A program made the position numbers and the translations under genes. The notes beneath the pieces were generated by a model. It saw only the letters and a program-made list of their open reading frames with translations. It did not search any database and had not been told where the DNA came from. Shown piece after piece: positions 7,586-63,100 of a stretch of 64,000 nucleotides of DNA (its first letter is position 1; the number at the start of each line of letters is the position of its first letter). This DNA comes from Mytilus trossulus (lineage: Eukaryota): contig NC_086378.1 of NCBI RefSeq assembly GCF_036588685.1, positions 23,746,001 to 23,810,000 of the forward strand, given 5' to 3'.

Positions 7586-7777
7586 TTCTTATCCCAGGTA
7601 TAGATTACCTAAGCCGTATTTGGCACAACGTTTTGGAATTTTGGATCCTCAATGCTGTTCAACTTTGTACTTTTTAGGCTTTATAAATAGTTTGATATGA
7701 GCGTCACTGATGAGTCTTATGTAGACGAAACGCGCGTCTGGCGTACTAAATCATAATCCTGGTACCTTTGATAACTA
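7586..7777 (+). mobile_element. 5'-truncated retrozyme, family A
   Basis: Reverse complement of the family A unit at 24760-25390 and 43621-43880; contains an intact hammerhead. Confidence 0.85.
7701..7744 (+). ncRNA. Type I minimal hammerhead ribozyme, intact core
   Basis: Stem I GCGUCA/UGGCGU; core CUGAUGA; stem II GUCU/AGAC with loop UAUGU; GAAA; palindromic stem III ACGCGCGU; GUC cleavage triplet with predicted cut after 7738. Confidence 0.9.
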
Positions 7778-9037
7778 TTAACAAAAATCAATTTTAATTT
7801 ATATATTTAATTAATTCCATTTACTTGTCAACGGAAGATGATTGTAAACTCTTATACACATCAAGACAAATAAATTATTTATATCTTTCATTATTTTGTC
7901 GTCATGTGTACTTTCGTTTTCCCCTGATGAATGATCAACCACATGACTAGTTAGATAATCTGTAAGATAACAACAATAAACAATGTTAGCTACAATGGGA
8001 ATAGTAAGTTTAAATTGTTAAATAACATTATTCATATAGAAAAAGAGTTGTGGGGTATACATAAATCTGAAAGCAATCAAATGACAAAGATCAACATACA
8101 TTTATAGGTGTCTATACAATTTATGTCCAACCGTAAGTTATATCTTTGTAAATACGTCTTTTTGATCGAGATTGAAATTTCAACTGATATTTCATACTGT
8201 TTATTTTTACACTACTGTTTCAAGTTATGGTGAAGGTTGGCACCTGTTAAAACGTTTTATTTCTCTTCATTTGTTTGCATTTGTCCTAAGTCAGGAGCTT
8301 CTTGTCAAGTGATTGTCGTTTGTTGATGTGGTTTATAAATGTTTCTGCCTTTTTTTAAAAATATAGATTAGACATTGGTTTTCCGGTTTGAATTGTTTTT
8401 CACCAATCATTGTGAGACCCGTAATAGCTTGTAAAGTGTTGAGTAGAATAATTTTAATTCAACATGTTACTCATATATCAGCATGCTTTTATAAAGAAAA
8501 ACCTTAATGTACTATTTATATTTGTTATTTATTTCGTCGTTCTGCTTTTTTGTTATTAATTGTAATTGTATGTTCTTGGAGTACTTATTTGCCAGAATAT
8601 TGATCGCAATGAGGTTATAATTAATGCCATATTTTTTATAGTTTCAGGGACAGGCGGACAAACGAACGGACGCAAAGACCAGAAAACATAATGCCCCTCT
8701 ACTATACTAGGTGGTGTAAATAAAAAGCATACTTCAATTAGGTAAATTTAAAAAGGAGAAGTCAATGGAAATGTACATAAGTCAGCCCATATCAACTACC
8801 GAAATAAACGGAAACAATATCACATGCCTGGCTTGGTATGAGCATTTTCCGATGAAACTTTTGTTTTAAACATGGTTTCCTTGCTTTATTTTTAAATTGT
8901 GTGAGAGATGTTTATATTTTATTGCTCAATTATATTGACACAATTGGATATGTAACCCAAAACACCTTCCAGTTTTAGACCATGGATCGTTTGTGTGTTA
9001 CATCTTCAGTTCGTTCTAAACCATTTTATTTTTTCAG

Positions 9038-10366: not shown

Positions 10367-10819
10367 TATATAAACAATATGTTACATCATATATAAAGGT
10401 CCGAGAAAAGCTCGGTTATTCTTTAACTTTTTTATTGCCAGTGTTCAGTTCCATAGTTAAAACGGTCTGAAGGAAACAAATAAAAACTCTTTATTTAAAT
10501 CGAATGATATTTTGCCATAATATGCTTTTGGAAAACATTGTTTGGGAAAAAAAGAGAGTACGCATAATTTGAACAGATGATTAACAATGGAGTAATATCT
10601 TAATCATGGCGGATATATTGTTCCTATGTTGTAAGTTTATAAAATTTTCAAAAATTGATTTGATTCTTGATCGAACATTTCTGATTTGGAACAATTATAT
10701 TTGTGATAAAATATAAATGATAAACTTAGCATATTTTTCGGTATTTGTAAAAATAATATATATGAAATAAAATACCGAAAACAAGTAACATTAAAAATAT
10801 TTAGCAGTTTGAAAGTGTA

Positions 10820-10905
10820 GTTTCACTGATGAGTCTTTTGTAGATGAAAAGCGCGTCTGGTGTATATACAAAATTAGATCCTGGTATCTATGATGAGTTT
10901 ATTTA
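10820..10905 (+). mobile_element. Retrozyme family A fragment with degenerate hammerhead
   Basis: CTGATGA-GTCTTTTGTAGAT-GAAA-AGCGCG-TC-TGGTGT, with a broken stem III pair. Similar decayed copies at ~33790-33960, 35620-35840, 44690-44740, 50545-50610 and 53575-53710. Confidence 0.75.
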
Positions 10906-11139
10906 CAAGAAACGTACACGACTTTACAATTCTCCGATATGTGATATTAATGTAGAAGATAAATAAAATTTTACAAAGATCTGTCCTCATGCAATTAAAA
11001 GAATTTTTTTGTTTAAAAGTATTCCTGATAGTGGTGAACTCTTACACAAAAAAAATTGACACATTAGAGTAATGAGGAAGAACAAAATACAACTTAAATT
11101 GACACTACGTATACATGTACATATATATTGGTAAAAAAA

Positions 11140-19292: not shown

Positions 19293-20435
19293 TAAAGCTA
19301 GGATCCATCACTTCATTTGTGCTTTGTATCAAACTTAAGATATAAAATTATATGATGTATATGATGTACACACCACTATTAAAAGTACACTGGTAGGAGT
19401 CGATTGACTATATTTTGTAAAGTATTTAAATAGTTATCAAAAGTACCAGGATTATAATTTTATAAACATTTAAGGAACATTAGGATTTATTGCGGAAGTA
19501 TGAATATACTGGCATACATTTGAGGAAATGGATATTTCATAACACGTTTGTTTTAAAGTAAATTAGATTCATGTATACTTACCTTGAACAAAAAAATAAA
19601 ACATCTATACGTATTTTGGTCTGCTTTAACAGGGAACTCTTAATTTTGTGTAATGATTAGATATTGCTTTTCATACATATTTTTCGAAAAAAAGAAGCTT
19701 TTCGATTTGCTGAATTGCCTTAAGCCACATACTCTTTTATCATTTAGAAAGCGTTTCTTGAATCAATGAGCTAATTTTGTTTTTTTTATCTTTTCATTAC
19801 AGGTTTGTCAAATTTAGAGTAATCTGTTTTCATAATAAATAAATCAGAACTCTTCATGTTTGTCCCTCCGCTTGTTAAACAGATTAACATATTTTTGAGA
19901 ATGTGATGATGAAAAAAATAAAATGACTCATTATACGTATTGAGCTATGTTAATATAAACAACAATAGATCAGCGCATAGTCGTCATACATGAGAAAATG
20001 CTATACCACAAATAAACGAGTATGTAAACAAGTAAATGTCATTGTATGACCTTACAAATACCTTACAAATACGACAGAAGCGGTCAAGGCAAGACAAAAC
20101 CAAAAGGCAAAACCAAACTAACAGTCCGAATAATGCATGAAAAACAAATAAGAAATACATTTTACAGACTGAAACCCACGACAATCATTGAATTACAGGC
20201 CCAAGACTTTGAACCGTTGCATTACAAATGTTCAACGTTAAACATGTTTGTGAGCGCTTACACAATTTCTAGGACAGAGCATGTAACATCACATCATAAT
20301 TAAAAGCTGTACAAACAAGTTAGAATCGGGTTTATTCATCTCATTTACACGAATCACAAAAGAAAACAAAAATAAAAAGACAAAAGACAGAGAATGCAGA
20401 TCTAAGATCTAAAATACTAGCTAGTTTGAAGCTTT

Positions 20436-23878: not shown

Positions 23879-24759
23879 ATAAAACATTGTAAAAGTGAAA
23901 AAAAAGTATTGTAATGGATATTTGGTCTTTCCGACAATATAAAAAAGAAGATGTGATATGATTGCCAATGAGACAACTATCCACAAAAGACCAAAATGAC
24001 ACAGGCATTTACAATTATAGGTCACCGTACGGCCTTCAACAATGAGCAAAGCCCATACCACATAGTCAGTTATATAAGGTCTAGATAAGACAATGTAAAA
24101 CAACACTAATTTTAAGTAAACAAAATCTGTAACTCGACAATTTACCAGTTTATAAACATTTCATTTATTCAAACCTGAAAAACACTACAGACAAGGGGCT
24201 TACGAATGAGTTGCGAAAGACTTTCACCGTAAGATGGAAACCTGTATACAAACTTAAATGTGTTTATATCATTTAATTACAATTAGTTATTAAATTCAAC
24301 GCATTCAATATTTTTTTAAATTTATAAATGCTCATTTCCATGATTTAACAACATAATTTGGCTCTTTCAAGTACATGTACTATGATGAAAGTGTGTACCC
24401 CGTAAACAGTTAATTTACATAAAAATGAACATAATATACCTTGTTTTCATAAAAGTGCTGTTAACAAATTAAAAAAAACAAAATGTTACGACTATACAAT
24501 TCCGAACAAGTAATGTTAACAAAAAAGTAAAGGCGTACAGTGAAATCCATACCAAGTAGGGCTCCATAAATAGGAAGCTGGTGAAATTGATTATTTTCCT
24601 GATCAAAATCTTTCAAAAGAGAGTATAAGGACATTCACCTTTAATAACATAACATAACAATGCAAACGACGTAACTGTTAGGCCTGGTTTAACAGTTATC
24701 AAACATTCCTTCATAAATAACATGTTTTTCCCCACATTTATTCAAGATCTATATTACTT

Positions 24760-25390
24760 GTTATCAAAGGTACCAGGATTATAATTCAATACACCAGACG
24801 CGCGTTTCGTCTTCATAAGACTGATAAGTGAAGCTCAGATCAAAATAATTATAAAGCCAAACAAGTACAAAGTTGAAAAGCATTGAGAACCCAAAATTCC
24901 AAAAAAAAAATTGTGCCAAATACGGCTAAAGTAATCTTTTCCTGGAATATGAAAATCCTTAGTTTTTTCGAAAAATTCAAAGATTTGTACCAGCAAATTT
25001 ATAAAAATGACAATATAATTGATATTAATGTCAACACCGAAGTGCTGACTACTGAGCTGGTGATACCCTCGGGGACGAAACGTCACCCAGAAGTGCATCG
25101 ACTCAGTGGTGTAAATTGTTATCAAAGGTACCAGGATTATAAATTAATACGCCAGACGCGCGTTTCGTCTGCATAAGAATCGTCAGTGACGCTCAGATCA
25201 AAATATTTATAAAGCCAAACAAGTACAAAGTTGAAGAGCATTGAGGACTCGAAATTCCAAAAAGGTTGTGCCAAATACGACTAAGGTCATCTATTCCTAG
25301 GATAAGAAAATTCTTAGTTTTTTCGAAACATTCAAAGTTTTGATACAGGAAATCAATAAAATTGAAAATATAATTGATATTCATGTCAAT
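24760..25390 (-). mobile_element. Tandem retrozyme family A, ~1.75 units of 358 nt with two degenerate hammerheads
   Basis: GTTATCAAAGGTACCAGGATTATAA at 24760 and 25118. Hammerheads at ~24791-24834 (core mutated to CUUAUCA) and 25149-25192 (core CUGACGA, first stem II pair mismatched). Confidence 0.9.
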
Positions 25391-27247: not shown

Positions 27248-27369
27248 GTAAGCTCCTCCTCTCTCTACTTCGTGTAATTATCACGTGGACAAGTTTTATT
27301 TAAGTTAAGAAAAATACTTATTTTATCATAGACTACCAAACCAAATATGCATAGTAAGTATTATGTTTA

Positions 27370-27799
27370 TACTAGTAAATTATAGGAGGTTTTTGACATT
27401 ATGATATATTTGTATTCGTCAATACCATTGAAGTTTAAGTTTAAGTAACTTTCCTATTTTTGGCAGTCTAAGTTCTAATAATTTCTTTATACAAAAATCT
27501 GTTTTTGTTTTTTTTGTATTCAAATATTCATATTTACATAGACATTTACAAATGGAGCGATTCCTAGAACAATCACAATATACTGGTAAATTATAGGAGG
27601 TTTTTACATTATGATATATTTTAATTCATAAATACCTTTGACGTTTAAGTTTAAGTAACTTTCTTGTTTTTAGGCAGTCTAAGTTCTAATAATTTCTCTA
27701 TAATAAAAATTCCGTTTTCGTTTTTTTGTATTCAAATATTCATATTTACATGGACAATGCAGCATACGAAATGGAGCGATTCCTAAAACAATCACAATA
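27370..27799 (+). repeat. Tandem duplication of ~211 bp, two copies, in the proposed GPCR intron
   Basis: TACTRGTAAATTATAGGAGG...AATGGAGCGATTCCTARAACAATCACAATA occurs twice (27370-27580, 27581-27799). Confidence 0.92.
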
Positions 27800-28319: not shown

Positions 28320-29488
28320 ATTTGACTAATAGTTCGTCTTTTCTAACTGGTGATATCTCGGAATATGAATATTTAGCAGACATCTTACGATCAATGAACC
28401 TGTCACAGTTTGGTAACGAGAGTGATCATGAATTGTTATACAATTTGATCAAACAAATTCAACAGAAAGTTGATTCAGAACAAGATGCATCTGTTCTAAT
28501 TTACAACTTACTGACATTTGTACCTCCACTCATTTTAGCATTTGGAATTGTTGGAAATATTTTGTCGTTTATTGTTCTCACTAAATTTTCCAAAAGGTTT
28601 CCTAGTTACCATTACCTGTATGTACTGGCATCTTTAGATATGGTTGTGTTATTAACAGGGCTGTTAAGACTATGGGTAAAACAAATAACCGGAAACGACG
28701 TTGCGAGTGAATCTAATTTTCTGTGTCCGCTATTCACATTTTTAGGTTTTTTCAGTAGTGTTGCTAGTGTGTGGATTGTCCTGGCTATATCTATTGATCG
28801 TGCGATTGCAATTAAATATCCTCTGAAGAGATATAAGGAAGATGTCAACAAACGAACAAAACTTATTATTCTGATTATTTTGATAGGAAGTGGATTAGTA
28901 AATATTCATTTCCTTTTTACCATGGGGTTGCAACCAAACAAATCACATGACCTCACATCATCATGTGACCCGCATTTGATGTACCTTAACTTTTATCGAA
29001 CTGTTTGGGCATGGATTGACGCCATAATTTACTCATGGATTCCATTTTGCGTCATTGGTATTACTAATATATTTACTATCATTGGCCTTTTTATCGCACG
29101 AAAAACTAGAAAATCATTAAACAGTAAAGAAGTCAAAGTATCACATCGGGAGCATTACATGACTATCATGGTACTTACCATTTCTATATCCGTCCTTATC
29201 ATGCTTGTTCCAGTCAATACCATAATGATAATGTTGATATTTTGGAAAAACACAGTTGGATCAAACCAAGAATTATATAGTATGCAGGTAGCAAAAACAA
29301 TCGGCGAACTATTAATGTATACAAGTCATTCGGTTAACTTTGTACTTTATTACTGGGCCGGTTCCCAATTCAGACATCAATTTGGGAAGGTATTCTTTCC
29401 AAAGAAAAAAGAAAAAAGAGTTCATAGAATGTCTACTTTTGAACCTACATGTAGTAAATCAATACTATCCATTGATGATGATTTATGA
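28320..29488 (+). CDS. Class A GPCR, FMRFamide / sex-peptide-receptor-like orphan peptide receptor, main exon
   Basis: Seven hydrophobic segments; GN (TM1), LASLD (TM2), DRAIAIKYP (TM3), Cys in TM3 and ECL2, IPF (TM5), SHSVNFVLY..GSQFR (TM7/helix 8); N-terminal sequons NSS, NLS, NES. Acceptor TTTTTCTTTTCCAG ends at 28319, so the TTG 'start' of the ORF track is internal. Confidence 0.93.
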
Positions 29489-31950: not shown

Positions 31951-31969
31951 TCGGAAGAGAAACAAATAG

Positions 31970-32348
31970 TTAATACGTCAGACGCGCGTTTCGTCTACAA
32001 AAGACTCATCTGTGACGCTCAAATCAAAATAGTTATAAAGCTAAACAAGTAAAAATTTGAAGAGCATTGATGACCAAAAAGTTTTCCAAATACGGCTATG
32101 GTAATCTTTTCTTGGGATAAGAACATTCTTAGTTTTTCGAAAAATGCAAAGTTTTGTTAAAGGAAATTTATTGAAATGGCCATATAATTTATATTAATGG
32201 CAACATAAAAATGCTGACTACTGGGCTGGTGATACCCTCGGAGACGAAACGTCCACCAGCAGTGAATTGACCCGGCGATGTAAATAGTTATCAAATGTAC
32301 CAGGATTATAATTTAATATGCCAGATGCGCGTTTCGTCTACATGAGAC
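31970..32348 (-). mobile_element. Retrozyme family A, slightly more than one unit (~344 nt)
   Basis: Hammerhead at 31975-32018 (core mutated to CAGAUGA) and a second truncated hammerhead at ~32318-32348. Confidence 0.85.
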
Positions 32349-35300
32349 AAAATCGTGGGTTAAACCTGGTTTAATAGAAACGATAAGTTTCCCGATTTGT
32401 GACAGTTGTTAGTAGTTCTAATATATTAATAGAATTGAGTGAGCATCCCAAACAGACATAATGTTACAATAATTGGAATTCAGCAGCCACACCTGTGTAA
32501 ATATATATCACAGACATAAAACACAACTGACTAAATTATTCAAACAAATGTACAATTAAATCATACAAAGGCGATAATAAAATATAACATATATATTATG
32601 GAAAAAACAGGGACATTAACTCACAATTAAACCATTATTTCAAATGCTGTTAATGATAAAAGGCTTGTCTGCCTTATACGTATACCTCCAAAGTTATGCA
32701 GCAAATACAGCTGTGATCCTTTAACGGACAAGTTTGAACGTTACGTATTCACATTGAAGTTATTTCAAAGTTAAAATGTGTAAAAACAAAAACGGAACGC
32801 TGCTCGCATGTACAAAGCAAGAGTGGGCTAAATAAAATCTATGAATTGTCGGTACTGAGTTAAATGTGGATTATATACTATACAGTGGTTGTGTTAAAAG
32901 TCATCATTCACAAATAGAAGTCTTGTAAAATATGTCTGAAAGATCTGCATAAAAAAATCAAGTATTAAGATGACAGAATCAATTATTTTTATCATATCGC
33001 TATGACAAGTAAGAGAACAGTTTGCTTGAATACAAATTTCAATCGTTTTCGTATATTCTTTTTTATAAGTTAGTTTTATGAAAGTGCTATGATTTGAGAT
33101 TAAAAAATAGCTTTCTGTTGAATAGTTTTGTCTCATACAAAGGTCGTTCACTAACGCTTTCATCCCTTCTATAGCTACCTGTTGTTAGTGTATATATTTA
33201 GACTTTATTCATTATCACAATTAATAACAATTTATTATCAAATGTTAACTGATATTGTTTTATTTAAATAAACAACTGTGTGTGTGCTTTGCTACTTGAA
33301 ACATAAATCATATGTAAACTATTTATTGTCACAGATCAATCTAGATATTTTTGCAGGAAAAAGACAAAATTTGTTTCCATATTCTGCATTTAAATTTTCT
33401 TTTCAAATACTTAAATTTTGACTTTAACCTTTTTTTATGACAAAAAGCGCGTTAGACGTACAAAATTATGAACCCAGATTTGTTGATGAGAATACTTTAA
33501 TTGTGTAACGCTTCATTTCAGAAGGTTTTATCTCGCGTTTTTTGTGTTATAATAGTGCTATAAAAACAAACTTTTTGACTATTTACACTATGTCTCTGCT
33601 TTATTTGACAATGATAACTGAATTTTGCGTTTATAAAAATCTGCTTCATTAAGAAAAAATCTGTCATTTTCATTACGTATAAGAAAGAAATTCTAATCGT
33701 GAACTAATTTGAAAAGTGATTAAGCTAGTAACGGTATAAATTTACTGTTTGCAAAAGATAAATCATTCGAAATATTTTTATTTTTTTTATCCCAGACAAG
33801 GATTACCTTAGCCGTTTTTGGCACAACTTTTTTGGAATTGGGGATCCTCGATGCTCTTCAACTTTATACTTGTTTGGCTTTCCTACTTTTTTGATACGAG
33901 CGTCACTGATGAGTCTTTCGTAGACAACACGCGCGTCTGGCGTAAGATATTATAAGCTTGGTGCTATTTGACAAATGCTAAATTTAAAAAGGCCGAATAC
34001 ATCTAACACAAGAACAACAACTGTCTATTACAGCCATTTTCTTTACTACAAAATTTTAAGTTAAACCTGTTTTTAAGCAAGCTGAACCGCTCACTTGAAG
34101 GAGGATACTCATGTGGGACCAACCCAAACAGACAAAATAGGCAAACATGTCACAAATTGTCAACATATTGTTTTAATATTAATCGCTATGGAACAAATAA
34201 TAAACGTCTTTTATTTCGATTATGTACGTAAATTGAAGTTCAATGTTAAAGTATATACGTCAATTATATCAGACGTAAGAAAACAAGAAAAAAGAATTAC
34301 TTGAAACTGTGAATTATAAAAAATTATAGGAAACTTAGATTGTAATTTATTTCACAAATATTTTATCATTTATTTCGTTTAATAAAAAAATAATGTTTGG
34401 ACAATAACACATAGTTTTCTGTCTAATATTTTTTCTTATATTGAGGTCTTTTACTTACGCTTTTATCGCTAGTACATGCTGTTGATTTCTTTTCAGACAC
34501 AATTCATTATCACAATAAAATACAATAAATTATCAAATATTAACCGAAAGCTATTTCATTGAAATACCATCTTTTCTTCTATTTGAAACATAAATCAAAT
34601 TTGTATATGTCAATTATAATTCTAAACATTATAAGTGAAATATTATCAAAGTTTTATTTAATAATGTTCATCCTTCAATACTGTTAGACATTTCTCCATT
34701 ATGTATTTCTATTTTCTTATTCAATCCTATTCAAATTTTACCTTTAAAGTTTTGTTTAATTCTTTATTCGAACGACGCTAGCTTTTTCTTTGTACACGAC
34801 ACTCGTGCTTGGCTTAAAAAAAAATGTCTGCTTGGTATCGTTGATGAGATTATTTAATATCTTCATCTCCACTTTTCAAAAGATTATTATGATAAAATCG
34901 GACTTGTTGACTATTCATATAACATCATGTCTCTGGCTTTTTTTGCAAATGGTAATTAAATGTTGCTTGTATCCAAGTCTTTTTTCAAAAACCTATGACA
35001 TTTTTACAAAAAGTCCGTTGTTTTTGTGTTTACAAATTATTAATACAATGGCTTTAATAAGACTTTCATACAAGTGAGAGGGTCAACTGGCTTGAAAAAA
35101 TGCTTAATTCACTATTTTCTATATGAGGAAATGATTGTACCAATTATGGAATTGGACAAATGTGTCCATTTGTTTGATGTGTTTGTGCTTTTAATTACTT
35201 CTTAAAGAAACAAAATACAAAGAATGAACATACCAATACCATCTATAGTATAAATGAATAATACTGTTTAGGACGAATATCACGAATATATATAACTTGT

Positions 35301-37779
35301 AATATTAACAAAACCCTAATATGGTATTCAAATGGAGAACAAATAAAACATTTTTTTCAACATCGATCCATCTAATGTTCTGTTCATATTAGTAAATTCA
35401 AGTAAAATGTTAAAGTATACGTCAGTTACATATACATCAGACATATCAGACGTCATAAAAAAACCTTTAACTAACAACTGTGAAACATCAAAGTTCAAAT
35501 GTATCATACAGCTATAAACATGATAAAAAAACAAAAAAGACAGAAAAAGATTGTAATAAGACAAGTCTTGAAACAAAAAAAAAAGAGAACGGATGAATTT
35601 TGTTTACAAAATTTAGAATTTTTTCAAAACTAAGACTTTTCTACCTCAGGCATAGATTACCTTAGCTGTATTTGGCAATTTTTTATAGGAATTTTCGTCC
35701 TTAATGCTCTTCAAATTCGTTCTTTATTTGGCCTTACAACTTTGTTTGGGTTCGAGCTTCACTGTTGAGTCTTTTGTAGGCGCAACACGCGTCTGGCGTT
35801 TATACAAAATTTAGTCTTGGTATCTATGATGAGGTTATTTGCAGTAACAGAAACAGAAAAATAAAAACACTGAAAACAAATATGCAAACACAGCAGTATG
35901 ATTTGTATTTATTTTTATCATTTGAAATCATTTGTAGTTTGTATTAGGTAAACCAGTTTAAATGCATACAATGCAAGATACAGTTACGTAAAAATCTTTC
36001 ACGACGTCGAACTGGAAAATATGCATTTTCGACTGAATTGTATCATACAAACATTTCAAACACGAGGTCATGGAATTATCTTTTTTAAAAGTACAGCTCT
36101 TTGTAAAATGCAGGCAGAGGGTGATTCATGACACTTTCAAAAACACATGAAATTTTATCACAGTAGTAGGATTAACCCCTGAAAAAAAAATTTGGAACTT
36201 TTTTTCCAAAAATTGTACTGGTTGCCATGGTAAGCAGGGCAGTACTTTTACCTAAAATGGAGGGCTAAATATGTCAAAAATCAACAAATTTCAAATGTCA
36301 ATATATTTTATTAGGATTGACAATAAAAATAAAACAAAATATGTTTTGAGCAAACCAATTCATACATTTTCATTTTATAATATCAACATTTGAGTAATCG
36401 ATATCAATAAAATGAAATAATAGATGTGAAAATGTGAAAAAAATGCAAATTTGCTATTTCTCAAAAACTGTGATTTTTTAGGCTTAAGATCGTTTAATTT
36501 CTTCAGTTACCAGATTCAATTACTTAATTGATGCTGTGCATGATACTATCCAAGGTATACTTGTTTAATAAAAACTTTTAAAATTTTGGGATCTGCCCCC
36601 ATTTTTTGTTGCAATGGCAACAAAAATCTCTTATTTTTGAAAATCTCAAAAAATGTGAATTTCACTACTTTTCCAAGAAAACCTATATTTTGTCACAAAA
36701 TAAAAGTATAAAAAAATAAGAAGTGTGCCTAATAATGATTTAAATATAGATATCACAGAAAGCTCTTAAAAAATGTGATATATTACGAATTTCTGTTGCC
36801 GTGGCAACAAAAAACTCATATTTGAAATAATTGTAAAAAAGTGAAATTCCCTTCTATTTTCAGTAAGATTAAATTTTGTCATTAGATAATATTATGCAAT
36901 TGGTGGTGTTCATAATAATGATTTAAATTTATTTGAAATTTTTTAGAAAAAATAATTTTAGAACCATTTCAGTTTCCATGGCAACAAAATCTATGTTATC
37001 AAATGTTGAAAACACATGAATAACACTACTTTTCCTGGAAATTTTTTACTTTGTCACAAAATCATAACATGAAATTGGTGTTGTGCCTTAAATTGATTAA
37101 AGTGTAAGACATATATGAACCCACTACAAAAGGTAGAATATAAAACCTGTTTTTGTTGTCATGGTAACAAAAACCTTAAATTTTGAAAATGTAAATGAAA
37201 TGAATTAAACTGCTATTTCAAGTCACTAATATTTAAAACTATGCTTAATGACAATCAATATAATAAACAACAACGGTTTCAAAATGATTTTTGTATCCTA
37301 CTGATACTTTTAGAGCTTCTGCTCTTCACAAAAGAACCCCTAAGGGTGACTGGGGAATAGAAATATGGTCACTTGGTCTACTCCCGAACTACTCTTACCA
37401 TGCTTACAAGCAATTATAATTTTCTATATTTACATTTGATTTCATGGAATGGTCATTTGGCAGGGGTGGATCCAGCCATTTTAAAAAGGGGTTCCTAACC
37501 CAGGACAAAGGGGTGGGGTGTCTAATTACATGTCCCCATTCAAATGCATTGATCGTCAAAAAAAGGGGGCTATATCATAAATTTCATGCATGTCTGTCAT
37601 TTTCTGGTTTTAGTTTGCCTCAACCAAATGATATGAAACATATACATAATTGTTATTACCACAAAACAGAGATCAAGTTTGAATTTAGTTAGCGTCACTT
37701 TAACTGTTCCCGAGATATTGGGATATCTTTGTTTGTTTGATACTTTAAAAATTGTTAAAACCGAGAACCAGATCAGTTT

Positions 37780-37901
37780 CATAGGCGGATCCTGGGTGGC
37801 CCGGGCCCCCTTTTGTGGGAAAAATTTGGTTGATTATATAGGGAATCACTGAAGTTTGACTGGAGCGTCCCCCCTTACAAAAAGTTATGGATCCGCCACT
37901 G
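37780..37901. mobile_element. GC-rich MITE with 5-bp TSD
   Basis: CATAGGCGGATCC ... GGATCCGCCACTG with TSD AGTTT/AGTTT. Confidence 0.8.
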
Positions 37902-37963
37902 AGTTTAGAACTGTATAGTTTACCTTAAATGACCTGATTAAGTGAAGAAATTTCTAAAATTGA

Positions 37964-43620: not shown

Positions 43621-43880
43621 GTTATCAAAGGTACCAGGATTACAATTAAGTACGCCGAACGCGCGTTTCGTCTACATAAGACTCATCAGTGACGCTCATA
43701 TCAAAATATTTATAAAGCCAAACAAGAACAAAGTTGAAGAGCATTGAGGATCCAGATTTCCAAAAAGCTGAATACGGCTAATGTAATCTATACCTGGGAT
43801 AAGAAAATCCTTAGTTTTTTCATAAAATTCAAAAATTTTTAAACAGGAAATTTATAAAAATGACCACATTATTGATATGA
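43621..43880 (-). mobile_element. Retrozyme family A copy with near-intact hammerhead (43652-43695)
   Basis: Minus strand GCGUCA-CUGAUGA-GUCUUAUGUAGAC-GAAA-CGCGCG-UU-CGGCGU: intact core, GUU triplet, first stem I pair mismatched. Confidence 0.85.
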
Positions 43881-46663
43881 ACATGAGTGATTGAACCTAG
43901 TTTTATAGGAAAAGTACTAAGAAGTGAAACTTACAAAAAATGTATGGGGTGCCGTTTTCTCGATGGTATCATATCTTTGTAGTTTACAAATTAAATGAAG
44001 TATAAAAATCATTAATGGACAGCTTGATAGGCCGCATTTCAAAACATCTCTCATTTTCACTTCAATCTGAATAGTCGGACATGGTACCAGAGGTATGTGT
44101 TATACTAAAGACGAAATACCGTTAACAGTAATTGACAAAGTAGTTGTTCCTTGGAATTTCGGACGTGTCTTAGATTTAAATTATGGTTGGTCTATGGAAA
44201 TTTACGTCTTCAATAAAAAATAAATATTAACACACGTTAGAACATTAAACTCAACATTTGCGGCTTATAATTATAATGATAACCGAATACAAAGGGTTCG
44301 ATTGAAGCACTTATGTATCTGCAATTCAAAATGGACTACCAACGCATGTTAAATTCCTTTTACTGACACGTGTCTTTACCTTCTAATAGATAACAGTTTT
44401 TAACTAACAGTTCACAAACGGATATCGATAATCAATTCAAGTTACGACTTAGATATTAAGTAATACAATATGTTAAAAAACGAAAGCCAAACATAGTGTC
44501 AATTTTGTTTTCACTTAACATACGAAAGGTCAATGTATTAGGTGAGATCCATGTCAGTATAAAGAATGATTTTTTTAACAATTTTTATTGGCACCTCTCC
44601 ATGTAAGTCCAAAAATAGCCCCGTGTTGTTACGAGTGGAATAAAACAATCAGATAAGACTGAAATTTCAATTAACAACGATAAGTCTTTGCGTCTGGCGT
44701 ATATACAAAATTTAGTCCTGGTATCTATGATGAGTATATTTTTTTTTGATGATTTAATTCAAGCAAAAATAAGATATTGAAAATATTAACTATTTTCCCA
44801 GTATAGGTAGCTGCCAATGTGTTTACATATTGTTGTTGCTTGACCTTTTTATGACGTAATTGATATATGTGTATGGTATTTATTTTCAACTGACATTAAG
44901 CGTGATTCAGCAGGTAGACATTACTTTTTTCTATTTAACTGAATCACGCATCATACACGTGTACATATAAAACTGAAAATGGCAGCAGTAACAAGTCAAG
45001 TGTGATCATTTGTGAAATGAGTAATAGCAGAAAAAAATTATTAAAAGAAAATGTTGATAACTTAGTTTTGGAGGAATACATGTATAATCTTGAAGGAAAA
45101 TTAAGACAACAGCAAATTTTGAACTTGTAATGTAACAACACATTTTGCCAAGAAAAATATTATCTGAATAGTTTAGCTACTATTTTGGACAGTTAAACAT
45201 GTATCGGCATGAATACCCCTAGTTCTAATAAGTCATCATAATGTTTGAAAAGATATGAAAGAAACACGATCAGCATGTAAATGACCAGCTTATTATCTAA
45301 ATGAGATGAATATTATAACGCAATTTATCAGGGGGTAACTTTTATTCTCATATGTAGATTTACATATAAATAACTTATGGACATGCGAATATAATATGTT
45401 AACAAACAGAAGAGAGTTTATGTTGACGTTTTCTACTACTGATAATCTGGCACTTACTATAATTATACCAGGCTTATAATTTGACTGTCCCTCTGGTATC
45501 TTTCGTCCCTCTTTTACTACGCATGACTCGCGTTTCTTTAGACTTAACAGGGCGCTCATAACCAAATATTGTTTTGGAATTGTATGGCTTTCAGCTATTA
45601 CGATATGATTTGAGGCGCACTAGTACTGGAATTATAAAGATTAAAACTCATTTATCATCAATTTGACAAATGTCGAAGTAGAAAAATCTAGGTATTTTCA
45701 ATGATTTAAAAGTTTTAATTAAAGAGAAGTTCTGATATTAATTTTATCATATGAGCATTCACTTCTATTTTGGTGATAACTACAGGTAGACAAAAAAATC
45801 AAGCAGAAAATTTTGCGGGAACTGCTTCTCTCTATATTTTTCAATATTAAAGATAAGTACCTTTGTTTATTGTTTCAAAAACTGTGAACAATATCAAGCT
45901 TTATTAAAGAATTTTAAATATATCTTTTTAAACAATATTTTTTGAAGGTCAAGAAAAGAAAGGTAGTGATAAGCAGGCAACATTTGTATTGCAAGGAATG
46001 AATAAAAGTAGAGGATTCCGAATATCTGACAAAAAGGCAAAAACAAGACACATGCAAGTGTAGAAAAGATTCTTGATAACTCTATAATATAATGATGAAA
46101 TTGAGAAAGCCTGTAATGGGTTAACTTTGTTGTTGTTTGACCATCATATGACGTAATTACTATATCGGTGGTTTTTTTTCAAGTAACATTTAGCGTTATT
46201 ATAGAGTTTAACATTATTTGTTTTTTGTTCAGCTGAAACAGCCGTCATACCCGTAAGCGATTCCTTTTATAGAATGGAAATACATATATCTTCTCAATAT
46301 GCCTTGTCATTCTGTTCAAGGTCGTTACGTGACTTATAAAGTTGCATTCTATTTGATTCGATCTCTAGTGGAGAGTTGGCCATCTTATAAGTGTATAATT
46401 CCCCGTTCAAATCATCATGTGTCTGTTAGAGCCTTTAAAAGCTAACCAATCGGTATGAGTTTTTCTCATTGTTGAAGGCCATACGGTTGCCTTCATTTCC
46501 TAACATCCACTTCATTTTAACTTTGATGAATCTGTAGTTGTCTCATTTGCAATCATACCACATCTCCTAATTTTCATATGTCATACCTTTTTCATGTTTT
46601 ATTTATGTATGATTGTAAAATCACATAAAGTCAAACAAGTTAAAAAAAAAAAGGAACCATTAA

Positions 46664-53099: not shown

Positions 53100-56000
53100 T
53101 AATTTAGACAACAATTAATTAGAAGTTCACTATTAAATTGATATGGTTTTATATCTTTTATTATATTTGTTTAAGTTTTTAAAATTGTTATATTTGATTT
53201 GGTTTTGCATGCTTTTAAATGATTTTATTTTCTTTGCAGTTTCGTGAAAGTACGAATTTGGGTACATGCATATTGTTTGACACTTACAGCGCGTATAGTA
53301 AGCGTATTTTTGTAACTTGTGATTAACGAAGATCTTTTTATGTTACAATACTAATGATAATAATCAAAAAATCTTTTAACATGATTGTGTGAATGAAATC
53401 AGCAGATTATTTCGTCAGAATCTCACTTGTTTATACTTATGTTATAGTTTCTAAAAATGAATTATTTACACTAAATTTAAATGGTTTAAAGTAAACATCA
53501 ATCAATTTTGTTACACAGCATTCAGATGTAATTCTATAACATGAATTAGAAATGACCTGAATGAAAGTCATTAATATCTTTCGGAATTTTGGGTCCACAG
53601 TGCTGTTTTTGTTCGTACATAATGGTGCCTTATAAGCGCCTTCAACTGTAGCATCACTGTTAAGTTTTGAGAAGACGAAACGTGTGTGTGATGTATGAAA
53701 ATAATGCTGGTATCTGTGCCGAAGTTATATAAGAACGTTCCCCTGAAATACTGTTTAATTTCGATTAAAAGCGTTTTGTCTGAATGTTTCAGCATCGACA
53801 TTTAAATAACTAGATAATACGTCAACGGAAGTGAACTGTGAATGTTTATTGTTTATTAAAAACAAAAACCTTTAGAATGAACCGTAATAATCTCTAGTGA
53901 TAATGAGTGCAAATGCTAAGTTCTTTTTAGGCATGCTTATTATTTTACAACAATTTGAGATAAATGTTGCTTTTGTGGTTTCAATATTCGGATTGAACCT
54001 TGTGTTGTGTGCTTTTTTGTTCGTTGGTTAAGAAAAACACATATTGTGTATTTCGTTTGATTTCCCATGCATTTTAATATCTTTAAGGCGTCATACTAAT
54101 GTTCATTTACGACATGTGTATGGTACTTCTTAACATCTCAAAACCAAAGTATAATTTCATTACCTTTTATAAGACCCAACAATAACACAATTACTAAATG
54201 CCTATCAATCATTTACTTCACATGCAAGAAAACTGACATTTTCATACATGTAAACGTATTTGTAGATCATTATTCGCAGAACAATTTTGCATTTAACATT
54301 TTCGATACTTTTCCTTTAGTTTTCTAGATAATAGGCAAAACGCAAAAGAAATGGCAATAATTCTGACAAGGGTCAACTGACGATTTTAGCCATTTTATTC
54401 TAGAAGATCGTTTATGCTTATAACTATTGTTAATCATTCTTTTTTAAGAAAATATGCAAACGTAGAAAAAATAATGAAATTCGTCATTTTAAGGCTGGAA
54501 GAAGTTGATGATGATTCAATATTAATGATTGTTTGGTTAAAGATTACTCAATTTTTTTGAAATCGGTTGATGACATCTTAAAAAAATCATGGTATTGGAG
54601 ATGTCATACAACTACTGAATTTCCTCTATTAATCTTTTCGAAAATTGTTCAGAATTTGTCTTTGTTTCAAATACAGAAATACTTGGCATGAGCAGAGTTT
54701 TATTCTGTCCAGAACTATACACAATATTTCAATATCATTGCACATTAACCTATAAAAGAAAGTAAACGAATCAAATGCTCACCTCTTTTTTTTATTTTTT
54801 TTTTATCTTTGTTCAAGTTAATGTGATGTAATCTTAAGTTTCCAAAATAGTGTATAGAGGGATATATGTGTGTTCTTTTTTTCGATTGCAACCGGAAGTG
54901 AGTACTATCATTTGGTGGTAATATACCTGCATTCTACTGCCATGCAGATGATACACAAGTTCACCATCGAAAACAACAAATCATTAGATAACTAGATTGA
55001 CATCTCTGGTTTTCTAAAAACTTAAGTAGACGAAATCAAAGCTTGGATGTGTAGGAAAAAGTAAAAACACAAAAATACTGAACTCCGAGGAAAATTCAAA
55101 AAGGAAAAGCAAAAAGCAAAAAGCAAAATCAAAAGTTCAAACACATCAAACGAGTGGATAACAACTGTCATATTCCTGACTTGGTACAGGCATTGGTACA
55201 GGAACATATTGTCCAACAAGCTATACTGTCAAACATCAATAAAAGTTTTTTTGATTGAGCCCAACTAAGCGAATCGCATACAGTCTGATTTAAAAATTGT
55301 GATTGTTTTTTTTTAAAAACATTCAGAATGCAGCAACATACCTCTGTAATTATCCAATCACGTTTTCTTCAGATTCGTTAAAACATATAGGACGAACTCG
55401 ATCCTATATTATAACGGACGCTTGAAAAAAATGTACCATGCTTTCTTGTTACGTCCCTTCATGATTAAGGTTAAGTGTTAAAAAATGGTGTGAGCGCCTC
55501 GATATTCTGTCCAAACGTCAACGTCTTTAGAAACCGCTGGCAGGTTAGTAACCAGCAAAACGAAAGTTGAAAATATACCTCAAGGACTTTTGACTCTTCA
55601 CTGGTTGCCATTTCAATTGTAATGCTAATATCAACTGCTGCTGAACGCATTAATGAACTTGTTTTTCTTTATCTAAACAACGCCATAGTGTGTACGGACC
55701 AATACGATCCTTGCGACGTGACAATGCTGCTTTTTCGTTGTGGTAGCAGTTTCCTTCCAGCAAGTCTTCGTAATGGACAATCACTAGTCAGATATATTTA
55801 AAAAGGACTGAAGACTCATTTATCAATGATTTATGGATTTATTATTGTAAATACCGGAATCCGGGATAGATTGTTTTTGACCGCTGTTGATTTGCTTCAA
55901 TAATCATTGTATTAAATTGATTTGCTGTGTTTCTGTATATTCTGGATATAACTGTTTACTATGAGTCGTTGTCTGTTGTTAACATTAACAAAGAAGCAGC

Positions 56001-57435: not shown

Positions 57436-59781
57436 AGTGTTTAAATAATCACAACAAGGACACATAAACAGACGGTGCTAAAACGTGTTTTAATCCGTAT
57501 TTTGTTTTATACATTTGATACATATAAGTAATTTATCATTTAAATTCATCCAAAATTATCGAAATAAAGGCAACAGTAGAATACCGCTGTTCGAAATTCA
57601 TAAATCGCTGGAGAAGAAACAAATCCGAGTTACAAACCAAAACTGAGGTAAACGTATCAAACATAAGAGGACCATGACACAACAGAAACACAACATTAAA
57701 ATAAAACATACATAGATACGAACTATAATATAACAGTGTCAATTTCCCTGACTTGGTACAGGGCATTTTAAGATAAAAATGGTGGGTTGAACCTGGTTTT
57801 GTCGAATGCCAAACCTCCCGCTTTAATGGCAATGTTAATGATAATACCTTATTGTTTAAATAGTTTGAGGATGTCACTAATTTAGATTTTACGCAAACAT
57901 AATAGTGCGTTTAAGGAACAAAGAATAATAATATATGTGGTATATAGTGACTGTGTCTTTTTATATGCTGTAATGTTATACTATTGTTACCGGTAAGTTG
58001 AAGGTCAGTACCGATTTAAACTTTCAAACCCTTTGCATTTGTCCTAAACCAAAAACCAGAATTTTTGTGGTTGTTGTTTGTTAATGTTTTTCAAAAAAGG
58101 GTTTCTCGTTTTACGTTTTTTTATAAAGACTTGACCGTTAGTTTTCGATTTGATTGTTTTACAGTATTCATGTTGATGTCCTTTATAGCTTACTGCTCGG
58201 TGTTAGCCAAGACTCATATCACATCTTGTATATCAATATATGAATGAAACAGCATCAAAACGACAAAAATAACCAATTGAAATACATCTACAGGGCAATA
58301 TCGCGTCCTCATGAATAGACAAGTATATATACAATATGTCAAAGTTGTGTCGCCATAAGTCTATACAAATTGTACATTGTTTTAACCAAAACATTTTCAG
58401 AATTGCCACTTGACAAAAATCTGCTATCACCAAGATTTCTCAAACGGGACAAAGTCAATGTCAACAGGGTTTTCAACTGATTTATAGTTTGTTCTGATAT
58501 TGTATTGTTACAACACTCTCCCATGTTAGAATAAGGTTTGGGATCACACTAACATTTTTAACCCCGCCATTTTCTGTATGTTTGTGTCTGTGCCAAGTCA
58601 GGATCCTGTAATTTGTGGTTGTCGTTTGTTGATGTGTTACATATTGTTTTCCTTCATTTCTTTATTCTTTATGCATAAATAGGACCGTTGTTTTTATTTC
58701 GTTTGAATTGTTTCAAATTAGTCGTTTCAGGGCCGTTTATGGCTGACTATGCGGTATGTAATTTGCTTATTGTTACAGGCACTTTGGTAACCTATAATTG
58801 TCAATTTCTGTATCATTTGATCGTTTCTAGAGAGTTGTCTCAATAGCAATCATACAGTCAGCATCTTTTTTTTTATATTTTAAATGTACATTTAGAGATC
58901 TCAAATCTCCCAAATACTTACCTTTTGACGTTATAGGTTGTGGAAACACCGTTACGCTCTGAATTTTAGACAAAGAAAGACAAATATGGATATATAAATC
59001 ATTGGATTAAACATAGGATTATGTTTATGTATATCAAAGCTGTCAACGAAAATACATTTGAATTTGAATTTTTTTTTTTTTTTTATTTATTGTTAACTGA
59101 GATACAATATTGACTTCAAATCTATATGTTGATTAGGAACCCTAGTAAATAAGCTTTACGTATTAGAAATCATGCCTTTCAGTTGTTTATTTGTAAAACT
59201 TGTTTTCATCGAATCAAAATAAAACTATTTTTGAATTGAATAGTCTACAACTTAAAAAAAAACTGCTCATCCACTAGATACGCTAAAAACAGTTGTAACA
59301 GGTTTAATTGTTAAAGTAATGTTTATTGGGTATATGTATTAGTGAAAGATAAGTTTGACATGCAAGTCCAACGAGATGATAAATATTATAAATTAAGATA
59401 GATGTAAATTGATAAATAAAAATATCATTCCCTGCGGGTATCATCAGACTATAGGTTCGTGAATCTAAACTGATATGATCGATTAATATATTCTCATTTA
59501 ATCAATTTACACAATATTAAGAAAAACACCTAATCAGTTAATTGATTAATGTGCACACAAATGAACTTCTTAGACAAACTTGACCTGGTGTCGAATCGAC
59601 TATTGCCCCATTTTGGTGTATCACAAGTGTTCAACTTATCAAGCATGTCCTCTTTTTTATTTTTATTTTGGGGTTCATCATCTGTAGTACAGTTTGAACC
59701 ACTTTTGAAATATCTATGAGCATATTTAAAGAATTTTTTTTATTTTACCTTCTTGAATACAATTAACGGTACCAATTTTCT

Positions 59782-59826
59782 TGCACCAGATACGCATTTC
59801 GACAATACATGTCTCTTCATTGATGC
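59782..59826 (-). ncRNA. Second family B hammerhead, core C3 mutated to A (probably inactive)
   Basis: GCAUCA-AUGAAGA-GACAUGUAUUGUC-GAAA-UGCGUA-UC-UGGUGC. Confidence 0.8.
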
Positions 59827-60135
59827 TCGTGGCCAAAATAAAATCCAAAGCTTATATAAAAGATGAAGAGCTATAATCCAAAAGGTCCAAAAAGTATAGC
59901 CAAATCCGTGAAAAGGAATCAGAGCTTTGCATGAGGGAGATACATTACTCAATTTATAATAATTTCTATCATTTTGTAACAGCTTATTTTAATAACGCAA
60001 AAAAAATCCGTATTTTCATGCCAGTACCGAAGTACTGGCTACTGGGGTGGTGATACCCTCGGGGACTAATAGTCCACCAGCAGAGGCATCGACCCAGTTG
60101 TAGTAATATAATTAACGGTACCAATTTATTTAATT

Positions 60136-60181
60136 TGCACCAGATGCGCATTTCGACAATACATGTCTCTTCAGTGATGCA
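60136..60181 (-). ncRNA. Type I minimal hammerhead ribozyme, intact core (family B)
   Basis: Minus strand UGCAUCA-CUGAAGA-GACA-UGUAU-UGUC-GAAA-UGCGCA-UC-UGGUGCA: 7-bp stem I, 4-bp stem II, palindromic stem III AUGCGCAU, AUC triplet. Confidence 0.9.
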
Positions 60182-63100
60182 CGTGGCCAAAATATTTGAA
60201 ATCCAAAGCTTATATAAAAGATGAAGAGCTATAATCCAAAAGGTCCAAAAAGTATAGCCAAATCCGTGAAAGAAATCAGAGCTTTGCATAAGGGAGATAC
60301 ATTCCTCAATTAAAAATAATGTCTATCATTTTGTTTCAGCTAATTTTAATAACACCAAAAATCCGTATTTTCATGCCAGTACCAATATTCAATTATTATC
60401 CATTGTAACATGTTACAGGTATCTAATTTTCTACGAACTTCGTTTATATCTGCTTTTGACTTTAGGATAAGCACATCCTTGACATGTTTTTTTTTTAATT
60501 AGGTCTTTTAGTTTGACTTACTTGGTTATTATAAAATGTGCACATCAATACAATACTAGAAGCTATATCAATCGGATTTCATTCGATGGTTAATTGGGTA
60601 GGTTAGTGAGCAATCTAAACGTGTTTGCTTTTTGTCTAAAAATGAAATGAAGAAATTATTAAAGTGTTTAACAAATAAAATTGATGAGAGTTAAGACATA
60701 ATACGAAGTCTTTCTATTGGTAAATTACCCACACAGTTAACCTTAATAACAGATTCAAGCGCTAAGAACAGACTAGGAAAAACAAGCCCTGGAGTCAATT
60801 CAATTCTAACCTAGTTAAACCGGATTGGATATTCTTCATTATTATAGGAGCTGCTGGTAAAATATAACCCCATTTAATTTAGTTAAAATGAATATGTAAC
60901 AAAAGATGATGTTATATAATAGAAGACGCTTTAAGGGATACTCTATTTCATCTTTTATCTTATTTGATAATATTTATGTCATCTACCAAAAATACTTTGC
61001 CATTATTTAAATGTTTCCTGATAATGAGAACAAATATAACGCCACTACGAACTTGATATATACCTGATCAAAGTTCAAACTAATAAAAGAGGTTGATAGA
61101 CAAATAGAATGATAAGGGCTGTCCTACCATACCTGCAAACAGTGTAGGTTTTACAGAAAATGTGCAAGCCCTTCATTGTACAGGAATCATTATATGTGCA
61201 ACTAAATGAGGACATTAACATAAAAAAATGTGCAGCTATCACGACGATATTTGTGCCAGAATATGACTGGTCATTTTTGTTATTAACTTTAAAGGTAAAC
61301 CATTGTTAATATGAAGCTAGATAATATAAAAGTTGACGGAAATATGATATTTGTAATAAGCACAAATAACGCAAGGCTTATTTTTCATCATCATCCTTAC
61401 AAAAATGGATCGGCTTGGAAAATTGACAATTGTTATGATAGTGTTATTCTATTTGTATTTGTATTTGTAACTGTTAAGTCTATTTTTCATGACATACTTT
61501 AAGTGGCTCGGTACTTATACATTCCGCAATTTAATTGAATGTTGTCTTTAATTTTTGCCTTTTTGCTTTTTTTCATAGCAATTTCTTTTTCTTTGTTTTC
61601 CATTTTTTTTGTTTTTGTAGTTATTAAAAAATTTCACAATGTTGACTGCTGTACTCTTATTTTTGACATTTTAACCTCTATTTTGTTTACACTTCATTGT
61701 CAATAAAATGATATAATACTCCAACATTGTCTACGTAAGTTAAGTTTTAACAATAATTAGTTATAGTGGATACAGATTACAACTAATATCAATCCCTTTC
61801 TACTTTGCGAGTGCGAGTGCTGCCTTGTAGCGGCATTAGCTTACTCTTTTACGAATTTTACAAGGGTGTCTTTTTCATGCAAGTGATATTGCTATATTTC
61901 TCTAAAGACAGGTCAGCTATTTATCGTCCCCTTCCGACTGACTATCATCATTTCTCAAGACTCGCTAATGGTGTCAAGCATTTTTGTCAAGAGAGAGCTG
62001 AAACTAAGTCCCGGAAATGAAATATCTCTACCAATCCAGAAATATGACAGTTGTTTTCCGTTCTTTCAAGTGTTTTAACACTTGATTTTACCTACTGATA
62101 AGGGACATTCCGTTTTTAATTTTCCTTTGAGATCAATATTTTATTTATTCTAATTTTTCAAACATTCTTTAATTGTACACTTTTCGTTAGGGGTTTTATT
62201 AAATTGTTTATTAAGTTTTTGTTGTGCTTTATTGAATGAATCAGTTATGAGTTTTTATAAACTATTTTAAGTGAACTTCTCATTTCAAGAAGACATCATC
62301 CACCAAACACGTTCGACCATTTTTTTTACATAAATATGCAAAATGAGCGATGAGCACGATGAACATGACGTTCCTAACCAGGGCTAGTGGATCGTCATGT
62401 GAAAAAGACCTATATTAAAAAGTAGTAGTGTTTCTAACGATGTTCTTTCTTTATTTTTTCGTCAACTATATTCTTTGATTAGACACAAGACAGGCGGTTC
62501 AACCAGAACAAAAACAAACTAATATATACCAATGAAGCCCAAAAAGGGAAATATTAAATTCAACAGCCACATGCATGACTTTTTTTTTCAATATTACAAA
62601 ATAAGTGCTTATTACTAAAAAAACATATTCAGAGAGCTTTTAGCCGGATAAAATATACTGAGCCAAAAAGGTTTAGCAACATAAATGTGAAATTTTATTA
62701 TATCACAAAATCATAACAACATATAATTTTAATAATTACAGAATAAAATTATGACATGTCAGAAGCGACATGAATGTTCATCACCCACATTGACTAGGAT
62801 TACTTTTGTATTGAGCGCGGAAGGATAAAAATTCGGAAATGAGTATAGTGTTATTCAAAATCAATTTCTCAGCTATGTCCTCAGTGCACCAATGAAGGAT
62901 TGGTAGGCACACCAGCAGCAGCGAAAACATATTGTCACGTGTAAACGTAAAGCGAATGTAGCGCTCCTCCCTTTGACGATTTTGTTTTTGGTCTATAGAT
63001 ATCGACCTATACTATGCAGTTGCAATTTGTCGATATCTGTTTGTTAGTCTCTAAATTGTTGCCTTATGTACATTAAATCGAGCCGCGATGTAAGCAACAC

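What the first reader, a model, noticed from the sequence alone, without database searches (positions are those of the whole stretch)
24760..25390. Family A retrozyme: dispersed and tandem ~350-nt hammerhead retroelement, over ten copies in 64 kb
Seen: a non-coding 344-358-nt unit with one hammerhead per unit, in both orientations, as 1-1.75-mers and truncated fragments in all states of decay. Established: non-LTR retrozymes are tandem hammerhead repeats that give circular RNAs and are thought to use Penelope-like RT; I recall ~350-nt examples being reported in Mytilus. Inference: read-through transcripts self-cleave to monomers that circularise and retrotranspose.
Basis: partly seen in the sequence, partly recalled or inferred. 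Interest (0 to 1): 0.75.

Follow-up and report, generated by a model that had tools for sequence, protein, structure and literature searches.

The report
Decayed mussel retrozyme with Penelope-like footprint
This is a damaged copy of a mussel repeat that carries a hammerhead ribozyme motif, likely the family already published as making RNA circles, and its copies share one fixed end beside a second conserved, predicted RNA fold that may be where a Penelope-type reverse transcriptase binds.

Summary
The repeat is real: window 24758-25389 is 1.77 copies of a 358-nt non-coding unit with one type I hammerhead per unit on the minus strand. Twelve related loci lie in the window, but only by pooling three subfamilies and short fragments; three carry a near-complete unit. 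The host is Mytilus, and the element fits the mussel non-LTR retrozymes of Cervera and de la Pena 2020 (PMC7229834), so the family is very likely known. This locus is predicted dead: one hammerhead has G5 and G8 changed, the other a mismatch at the base of stem II. Two features I did not find in the papers read: (1) polarity: 9 of 12 loci end 33-45 nt 3' of the cut site while the other ends scatter; no poly(A), no target duplication; (2) directly beyond that end lies a ~78-nt fold, 70/79 identical between subfamilies (ribozyme 29/40, body 113/196), with two-sided pair changes and no Rfam match. This resembles the internal start of Penelope reverse transcription (PMC11167929), and suggests the fold positions the enzyme. 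That role is inferred, not shown.

The parts
24758..25115 (-). Complete 358-nt repeat unit (family A)
25116..25389 (-). Second, 5'-truncated unit (0.77); stops at RNA +122, inside the 3' hairpin of the conserved fold
25149..25192 (-). Type I hammerhead, core intact, U-C mismatch at first pair of stem II; predicted cut between 25155 and 25154
24791..24834 (-). Type I hammerhead with G5 and G8 of the core changed (24826, 24823); predicted inactive; cut position 24797/24796
25030..25107 (-). Conserved structured domain (long stem plus UUCG-capped hairpin), RNA +48 to +125; no Rfam or tRNA match
24758..24796 (-). Segment from the cut site to the fixed element end (RNA +1 to about +37/39); inferred start of reverse transcription at its outer end
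7586..7783 (+). Family A truncated copy with fully intact hammerhead (7701-7744, 33 bits)
10819..10912 (+). Subfamily C fragment
19425..19464 (-). 40-nt family A fragment, RNA +43 to +6, stopping 5 nt short of the cut site
31958..32348 (-). Family A 1.1-mer inserted in an unrelated repeat; carries the domain at 32194-32294
33735..33966 (+). Decayed family A copy
34767..34855 (+). Weak, very decayed fragment (E 0.006); membership uncertain
35593..35844 (+). Subfamily C copy, hammerhead damaged
43621..43881 (-). Family A 0.75-mer inserted at the same site of the same unrelated repeat as 31958
44690..44744 (+). Subfamily C 50-nt fragment ending a few nt past the cut site
53577..53729 (+). Old, heavily decayed copy
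59756..60385 (-). Family B 1.8-mer (unit 354 nt); one intact hammerhead (core at 60174), one with C3 changed; domain at 60015-60115

Best explanation
The locus is a 1.77-unit, hammerhead-bearing repeat of a mussel genome, likely an old and predicted-inactive insertion of the Mytilus non-LTR retrozyme family, most likely written into DNA by a Penelope-type reverse transcriptase that would start inside the RNA about 33-45 nt downstream of the ribozyme cut. Shown here: the repeat, the hammerhead motifs and their damage, the fixed and the scattered ends, the conservation of a second domain. Shown by others for mussel retrozymes (PMC7229834): self-cleavage, ligation by RtcB in vitro, abundant circles. 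Inferred: intact tandem copies elsewhere supply minus-strand RNA (circle or uncut multimer); the protein binds the ~78-nt fold at +48 to +126, primes from a nick in A/T-rich DNA just 5' of the fold, copies across the cut/ligation junction and falls off at variable points, rather often when it meets the fold again, giving 0.75- and 1.75-mers.
For: Host: neighbouring GPCR exon is 100% identical to a protein named as Mytilus trossulus. Hammerhead; family-wide the core letters G5/G8 are kept in 86-100% of contig depth in 4 of 4 runs (e.g. X1 93700/95397 and 93137/95682; X19 1640764/1797774 and 1606687/1872057). G8C abolishes cleavage per PMC11167929. Polarity: outer ends of 9 of 12 window loci at RNA +33..+45, the other 3 at +11, +12, +26, none into the domain; binomial 2e-11 for a given 13-nt window, 8e-9 over all windows; 2 of 2 outside loci with that end visible (L002 +37, L003 +44) agree. 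Other ends scatter from +6 to +331. In one search, 715/152/60/9 contigs cross 24760 into letters with agreement 0.43-0.51 whose majority follows the element for only 6-8 nt. No target duplication (longest shared flank word 5.0 vs 5.2 for mismatched flanks, 10 loci), no poly(A) at the fixed end (flanks). Domain: 70/79 identical between families A and B against 29/40 for the ribozyme 5' part, 113/196 for the body, 24/47 for +1..+47; 5 of 25 pairs with two-sided change, 0/500 shuffles reach the score; folds better on the hammerhead strand (z -3.7 to -4.6 vs -2.0 to -3.4). Precedent: anole Penelope RT starts internally 85-92 nt 3' of the hammerhead cut, needs RNA 3' of the start, nicks A/T-rich DNA; Xenopus retrozymes derive from Penelope pLTRs.
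Against: No autonomous Penelope element was found or compared: no genome was held and no RT/GIY-YIG hit in 23 of the 70 window ORFs scanned. The start offset differs from the anole case (33-45 vs 85-92 nt). Covariation rests on 6 sequences from essentially two lineages, so it is not a probability; the central helices never covary and two alternative folds score alike. The two focal units share only 1 exclusive letter and are 87% identical, no closer than to other loci (83-90%), so a single circular template is not shown (the L001 units share 6). Stops at the fold are 3 of 12 (p about 0.012, chosen after looking). Short fragments stop near, not at, the cut (+6; about 5 nt past). Ends of subfamily C copies were measured against a family A reference and are approximate. 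Identity with the published clones unverified.
Confidence: 0.62

Rival explanations
1. Same family, but the fixed end is a real RNA 3' end (a host nuclease cut or transcription stop at the 5' base of the fold) used SINE-style by some LINE, and the fold serves processing, ligase recruitment or circle stability rather than RT binding.
For: The fixed end abuts the fold in both families; RNA-level selection on the fold does not name its partner; no Penelope partner was seen.
Against: No poly(A) or simple-repeat tail and no target duplication; ends spread over about 12 nt; published mussel RNAs are unit-length circles; no tRNA-like match.
Confidence: 0.17
2. The conserved domain is mainly an internal promoter read as DNA (Pol III B-box type or other), as in Schistosoma hammerhead repeats; end polarity has another cause.
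For: An 11-nt stretch at about +51 resembles a B box with one mismatch (consensus recalled, no call); Pol III-driven hammerhead SINEs in Schistosoma and Pol II-driven newt repeats are reviewed in PMC6765202; a 20-nt core is near invariant.
Against: Two-sided pair changes and a kept UUCG loop point to RNA; the hammerhead strand has 9 runs of four or more T per unit, which would stop Pol III (established knowledge).
Confidence: 0.12
3. One reading: read-through RNA of 24758-25389 self-cleaves twice, circularises and retrotransposes.
For: Two hammerhead motifs 358 nt apart; the upstream one has an intact core; the palindromic helix III could allow a dimeric fold.
Against: Downstream hammerhead lacks G5 and G8; upstream one has a stem II mismatch; stem I is not formed in the predicted circle (probability 0.0).
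Confidence: 0.04
4. A non-autonomous rolling-circle DNA element (Helitron/Helentron type) or plain satellite that merely carries a hammerhead.
For: One fixed end, partial tandems, no target duplication and A/T-rich targets also fit rolling-circle DNA transposons (recalled).
Against: The fixed end is fuzzy over about 12 nt; the ribozyme core is kept family-wide; the fold is strand-biased with G-U pairs; RNA circles are published for the mussel family.
Confidence: 0.05

Closest known systems
Mytilus galloprovincialis non-LTR retrozymes (Cervera and de la Pena 2020, PMC7229834; read: abstract, methods, results, discussion; supplement not readable)
   Same: Genus, 350-390-bp units (here 343-358), type I hammerhead per unit, more than one ribozyme family, low GC, non-coding, hammerhead not formed in the predicted circle.
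   Different: This copy is damaged and from a genome whose neighbouring gene matches M. trossulus; sequence identity to clones MN642551-76 not checked. Fixed end and second conserved domain are not mentioned in the parts read; the 2020 review (PMC7761336, passages) says metazoan repeats show no conserved motif that points to the mobilising element.
Penelope-like element PAc of Anolis (Frangieh et al. 2024, PMC11167929; read: main text and part of methods)
   Same: Genomic copies end at a site 3' of the hammerhead cut; RNA 3' of that site is needed; A/T-rich targets; partial tandems with 5' truncation.
   Different: PAc encodes RT plus GIY-YIG and has a minimal hammerhead; start is 85-92 nt from the cut in an AC-rich stem-loop; here non-coding, 33-45 nt, fold not homologous as far as tested (not aligned).
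Vertebrate non-LTR retrozymes derived from Penelope pLTRs (Li et al., bioRxiv 10.64898/2026.07.22.740005; read: abstract to discussion; supplements closed)
   Same: Monomers, dimers and fragments dispersed through the genome; proposed Penelope mobilisation.
   Different: No mollusc sampled; link is by homology and co-occurrence, not by end mapping or an RNA element. This locus fails their definition of 'active' (two consecutive complete hammerheads).
Rfam Hammerhead_1 (RF00163)
   Same: Core, three helices, short palindromic helix III, GUC triplet.
   Different: Scores 16.6-33.3 bits, all under the gathering score of 34.

Membership tests
Metazoan non-LTR retrozyme | Type I hammerhead motif in each repeat unit | tested here: met
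   motifs present, below Rfam gathering, both focal ones damaged
Metazoan non-LTR retrozyme | Head-to-tail units of 150-450 bp | tested here: met
   358-nt period; also 31958, 59756, L001, L002
Metazoan non-LTR retrozyme | GC under 50%, non-coding, no LTRs | tested here: met
   GC 0.35; longest ATG frame on the L001 circle 34 aa, on the focal circle 87 aa; the two frames over the unit have no Pfam hit; flanks are not repeated. PBS/PPT not searched.
Metazoan non-LTR retrozyme | Self-cleavage and circular RNA in vivo | not testable with these tools
   Only assembled contigs were offered; shown for M. galloprovincialis in PMC7229834
Metazoan non-LTR retrozyme | Target-site duplication longer than 4 bp (optional, 'when present') | tested here: inconclusive
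   None above background in 10 loci; copies are old
Published Mytilus retrozyme family (Mg353, MN642551-76) | Sequence identity to the published clones | not testable with these tools
   Supplement unreadable; five motifs found in no full text
'Active' retrozyme of Li et al. 2026 | Two consecutive units with complete hammerheads | tested here: not met
   G5 and G8 changed at 24828 motif; stem II mismatch at 25186 motif
Autonomous Penelope-like element | RT plus GIY-YIG ORF next to the hammerhead repeat | tested here: not met
   (23 of 70 ORFs scanned, those near the copies; none hit); the two long ORFs are LRR and GPCR
Penelope-type mobilisation | Copies end at a preferred site 3' of the hammerhead cut, 5' ends truncated | tested here: met
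Penelope-type mobilisation | Shared sequence with a Penelope pLTR/ORF start of the same host | not testable with these tools
   No genome held
tRNA-derived SINE | tRNA-like head, tail, target duplication | tested here: not met

The most novel reading that the evidence does not exclude
Mussel retrozymes carry, besides the hammerhead, a second RNA element more conserved than the ribozyme: a ~78-nt fold that recruits the Penelope reverse transcriptase and fixes its start just upstream, so the genome's copy ends record internal initiation on a circular RNA and the fold's return after one lap sets the 0.75/1.75-mer sizes. This would name the mobilising enzyme class and the cis-signal of an animal retrozyme.
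Probability: 0.33. Interest if true: 0.7.

Novelty: new member of a known kind. Interest (0 to 1): 0.38.

Why it matters
The family itself is published, and this copy is a fossil, so the finding as written is ordinary. What matters is the by-product: how animal retrozymes get back into DNA is open (the 2020 review says no conserved motif points to the helper element). A fixed end plus an adjacent conserved fold gives a concrete start site and a candidate binding element that can be tested by genome-wide end mapping and one in vitro assay, and would say whether RNA circles are real retrotransposition templates.

Tried and rejected
Second hammerhead on the plus strand in the domain: rejected by inspection (A6 changed, no NUH site in register) and no Rfam hit. 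Domain as an anti-hammerhead blocker: complementarity exists in family A only and the domain folds locally in all four circles. HDV-like or H-type pseudoknot: rejected, a 3-nt linker would have to span 12 bp and no catalytic strand is present (reasoning). tRNA origin: none. Target duplications: none above background. Single-template test on the two focal units: no signal. Expression: 18 RNA or guessed-RNA runs held only small shares (0.06-0.15); family contigs were laid in 4 of 4 runs, but contigs show neither strand, ends nor circles, RNA status is a guess for X1 and X3, and the unique flank 24560-24730 had next to no cover in any run, so transcription of this locus is neither shown nor excluded. 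Pattern scans: viral contigs 0, genome contigs 0 for the domain and 1 for the hammerhead, metagenomes 2. Earlier scan notes: nothing. Whole-monomer folding is not exceptional for the intact L001 unit (z -0.5; focal unit z -3.0).

Full report
Observation. Window 24758-25389 is a head-to-tail repeat: a full 358-nt unit and 0.77 of a second, 86% identical. Rfam finds nothing at gathering level in the window, but in E-value mode Hammerhead_1 matches the minus strand at 25149-25192 (24.5 bits) and 24791-24834 (16.6 bits), 358 nt apart. The unit is 35% GC. With the focal unit as query nhmmer gives 12 segments at 9 loci, both strands, and 30 shuffles give none; three further fragments make 12 loci, 4.7% of the window. 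They fall into family A (6 loci), a family B 1.8-mer at 59756 whose body is only 113/196 identical to A, and a third type plus very old pieces (5 loci). Only three loci hold a near-complete unit. So the repeat is real, and 'over ten copies' needs pooling.

Host and family. The GPCR exon at 28349-29485 is 100% identical to a protein named as Mytilus trossulus, 89% to M. coruscus. PMC7229834 (abstract, methods, results and discussion read; supplement not readable) reports about 5000 type I hammerheads in two families in 350-390-bp repeats of M. galloprovincialis, self-cleavage at about 0.1 per min, abundant circles and RtcB ligation in vitro. Size, ribozyme type and subfamily structure fit; direct sequence identity could not be checked (one search found none of five motifs in any full text). 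Laying contigs of four public runs on one unit gave 6065, 155, 1510 and 58269 contigs: a very large family, though contigs say nothing on strand, ends or circles.

State of this copy. Of 11 hammerhead motifs in the window two are fully intact (7707, 60174); one chance row was dropped. At the focal locus the motif that would make the monomer's 3' end has G5 and G8 changed; the family letters are read at these two places in 86-100% of depth in all four runs, so the damage is private. G8C abolishes cleavage (PMC11167929). The other motif has an intact core but a U-C mismatch opening stem II. No monomer or circle is predicted from this locus. No RT or endonuclease frame lies near it (23 of 70 ORFs scanned).

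Polarity of copies. Numbering the RNA from the first base after the cut, the outer 3' ends of the 12 window loci lie at +45, +43, +37, +11, +36, +45, +26, +45, +34, +40, +12 and +33: nine within +33..+45, none beyond +45, against a 355-nt unit (binomial 2e-11; 8e-9 allowing any window). L002 (+37) and L003 (+44), from other collections, agree, though they were found by patterns near this region. In one search, 715, 152, 60 and 9 contigs cross position 24760 into loose letters; the pile-up there is by construction, but the low agreement (0.43-0.51) and a majority that follows the element for only 6-8 nt say most leave the element there. The other ends scatter from +6 to +331; three of twelve stop at the 3' hairpin of the domain below (p about 0.012, post hoc). 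There is no poly(A) and no target duplication above background. This is the pattern of target-primed reverse transcription from a preferred start with 5' truncation (established knowledge). Most copies cross the cut site, so the template was a circle or an uncut multimer; the two focal units are no more alike (87%, 1 exclusive shared letter) than other loci, so I cannot choose.

A second conserved element. RNA +48 to +126 (window 25107-25030) begins right after the fixed end. Between families A and B it is 70/79 identical, more than the ribozyme part (29/40) or the rest. It folds as a long stem followed by a UUCG-capped hairpin, better on the hammerhead strand (z -3.7 to -4.6 against -2.0 to -3.4, on windows chosen after looking). 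In six real copies 93% of cells pair and 5 pairs change on both sides, 0 of 500 shuffles reaching the score, but these are two lineages, the changes sit in the outer stem, a small hairpin and the UUCG hairpin, and two alternative central folds score alike. It matches no Rfam family and no tRNA. A blocker role, a second ribozyme and a pseudoknot were considered and rejected.

Mechanism. The anole Penelope protein nicks A/T-rich DNA, starts reverse transcription inside the RNA 85-92 nt 3' of the hammerhead cut, needs RNA 3' of the start, does not need ribozyme cleavage, and leaves copy ends at those start sites (PMC11167929, main text read). Xenopus retrozymes are related to Penelope pLTRs (bioRxiv 10.64898/2026.07.22.740005, abstract to discussion read; supplements closed), and Penelope elements abound in Mytilus (PMC8557442, passages). 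I therefore infer that a Penelope-type protein binds the domain, starts 3-15 nt 5' of it, and copies round the unit. The family assignment I put near 0.9, Penelope-type internal start near 0.6, the domain as protein-binding signal near 0.35. Rivals: a true RNA 3' end used by a LINE; an internal promoter (a B-box-like stretch, consensus recalled; Schistosoma and newt precedents in PMC6765202, passages; nine T-runs argue against Pol III); an active locus; a rolling-circle DNA element.

Novelty. The family is very likely known and the copy is a fossil. The fixed end and the domain were not mentioned in the parts read of PMC7229834, its preprint (passages), the review PMC7761336 (passages, which states that no conserved motif points to the helper element) or the 2026 preprint; searches (listings only for the other papers) showed no other treatment. 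The unread supplement of PMC7229834 (alignments, circle folds) and subscription papers or repeat databases may hold them. Verdict: new member of a known kind, interest 0.38, with a testable mechanistic lead.

Noticed in passing
window 31958-32348 and 43621-43881: Two retrozyme copies with different truncations sit at the same position (within about 3 nt) of two copies of another, unclassified repeat (about ten more copies, e.g. 52760-52890, 31030-31150, 57735-57860, show the empty site): possible target preference.
   Followed up: partly
window 7586-7783: The one fully intact family A hammerhead reads on the plus strand 1.2 kb upstream of an LRR-protein exon (9020-10366, plus strand, apparently preceded by a splice acceptor); if inside that gene's intron it could cut the pre-mRNA.
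   Followed up: no
window 27368-27799: The annotated first coding exon of the FMRFamide-receptor-like GPCR (ATG at 27552) lies inside a 210-bp tandem duplication, with a second ATG copy at 27771.
   Followed up: partly
window 3243-3378: Near-perfect inverted repeat with arms of about 60 bp; gives spurious Rfam miRNA/sRNA hits.
   Followed up: no
L003 (CALHGI010000550.1) 190-270: A mussel retrozyme fragment sits in a contig of a cyanobacterial MAG whose other end looks bacterial: probably a chimeric or contaminated contig.
   Followed up: no
window 10819-10912, 35593-35844, 44690-44744: A third subfamily with a different segment between cut site and fixed end; loose ends at 25075 suggest a third variant of the small hairpin in the domain.
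   Followed up: partly
window 36603-38986, 40292-41699, 42343-42931, 742-2535: Other tandem arrays (periods about 126, 160, 185, 790 and 1060) unrelated to the retrozyme.
   Followed up: no
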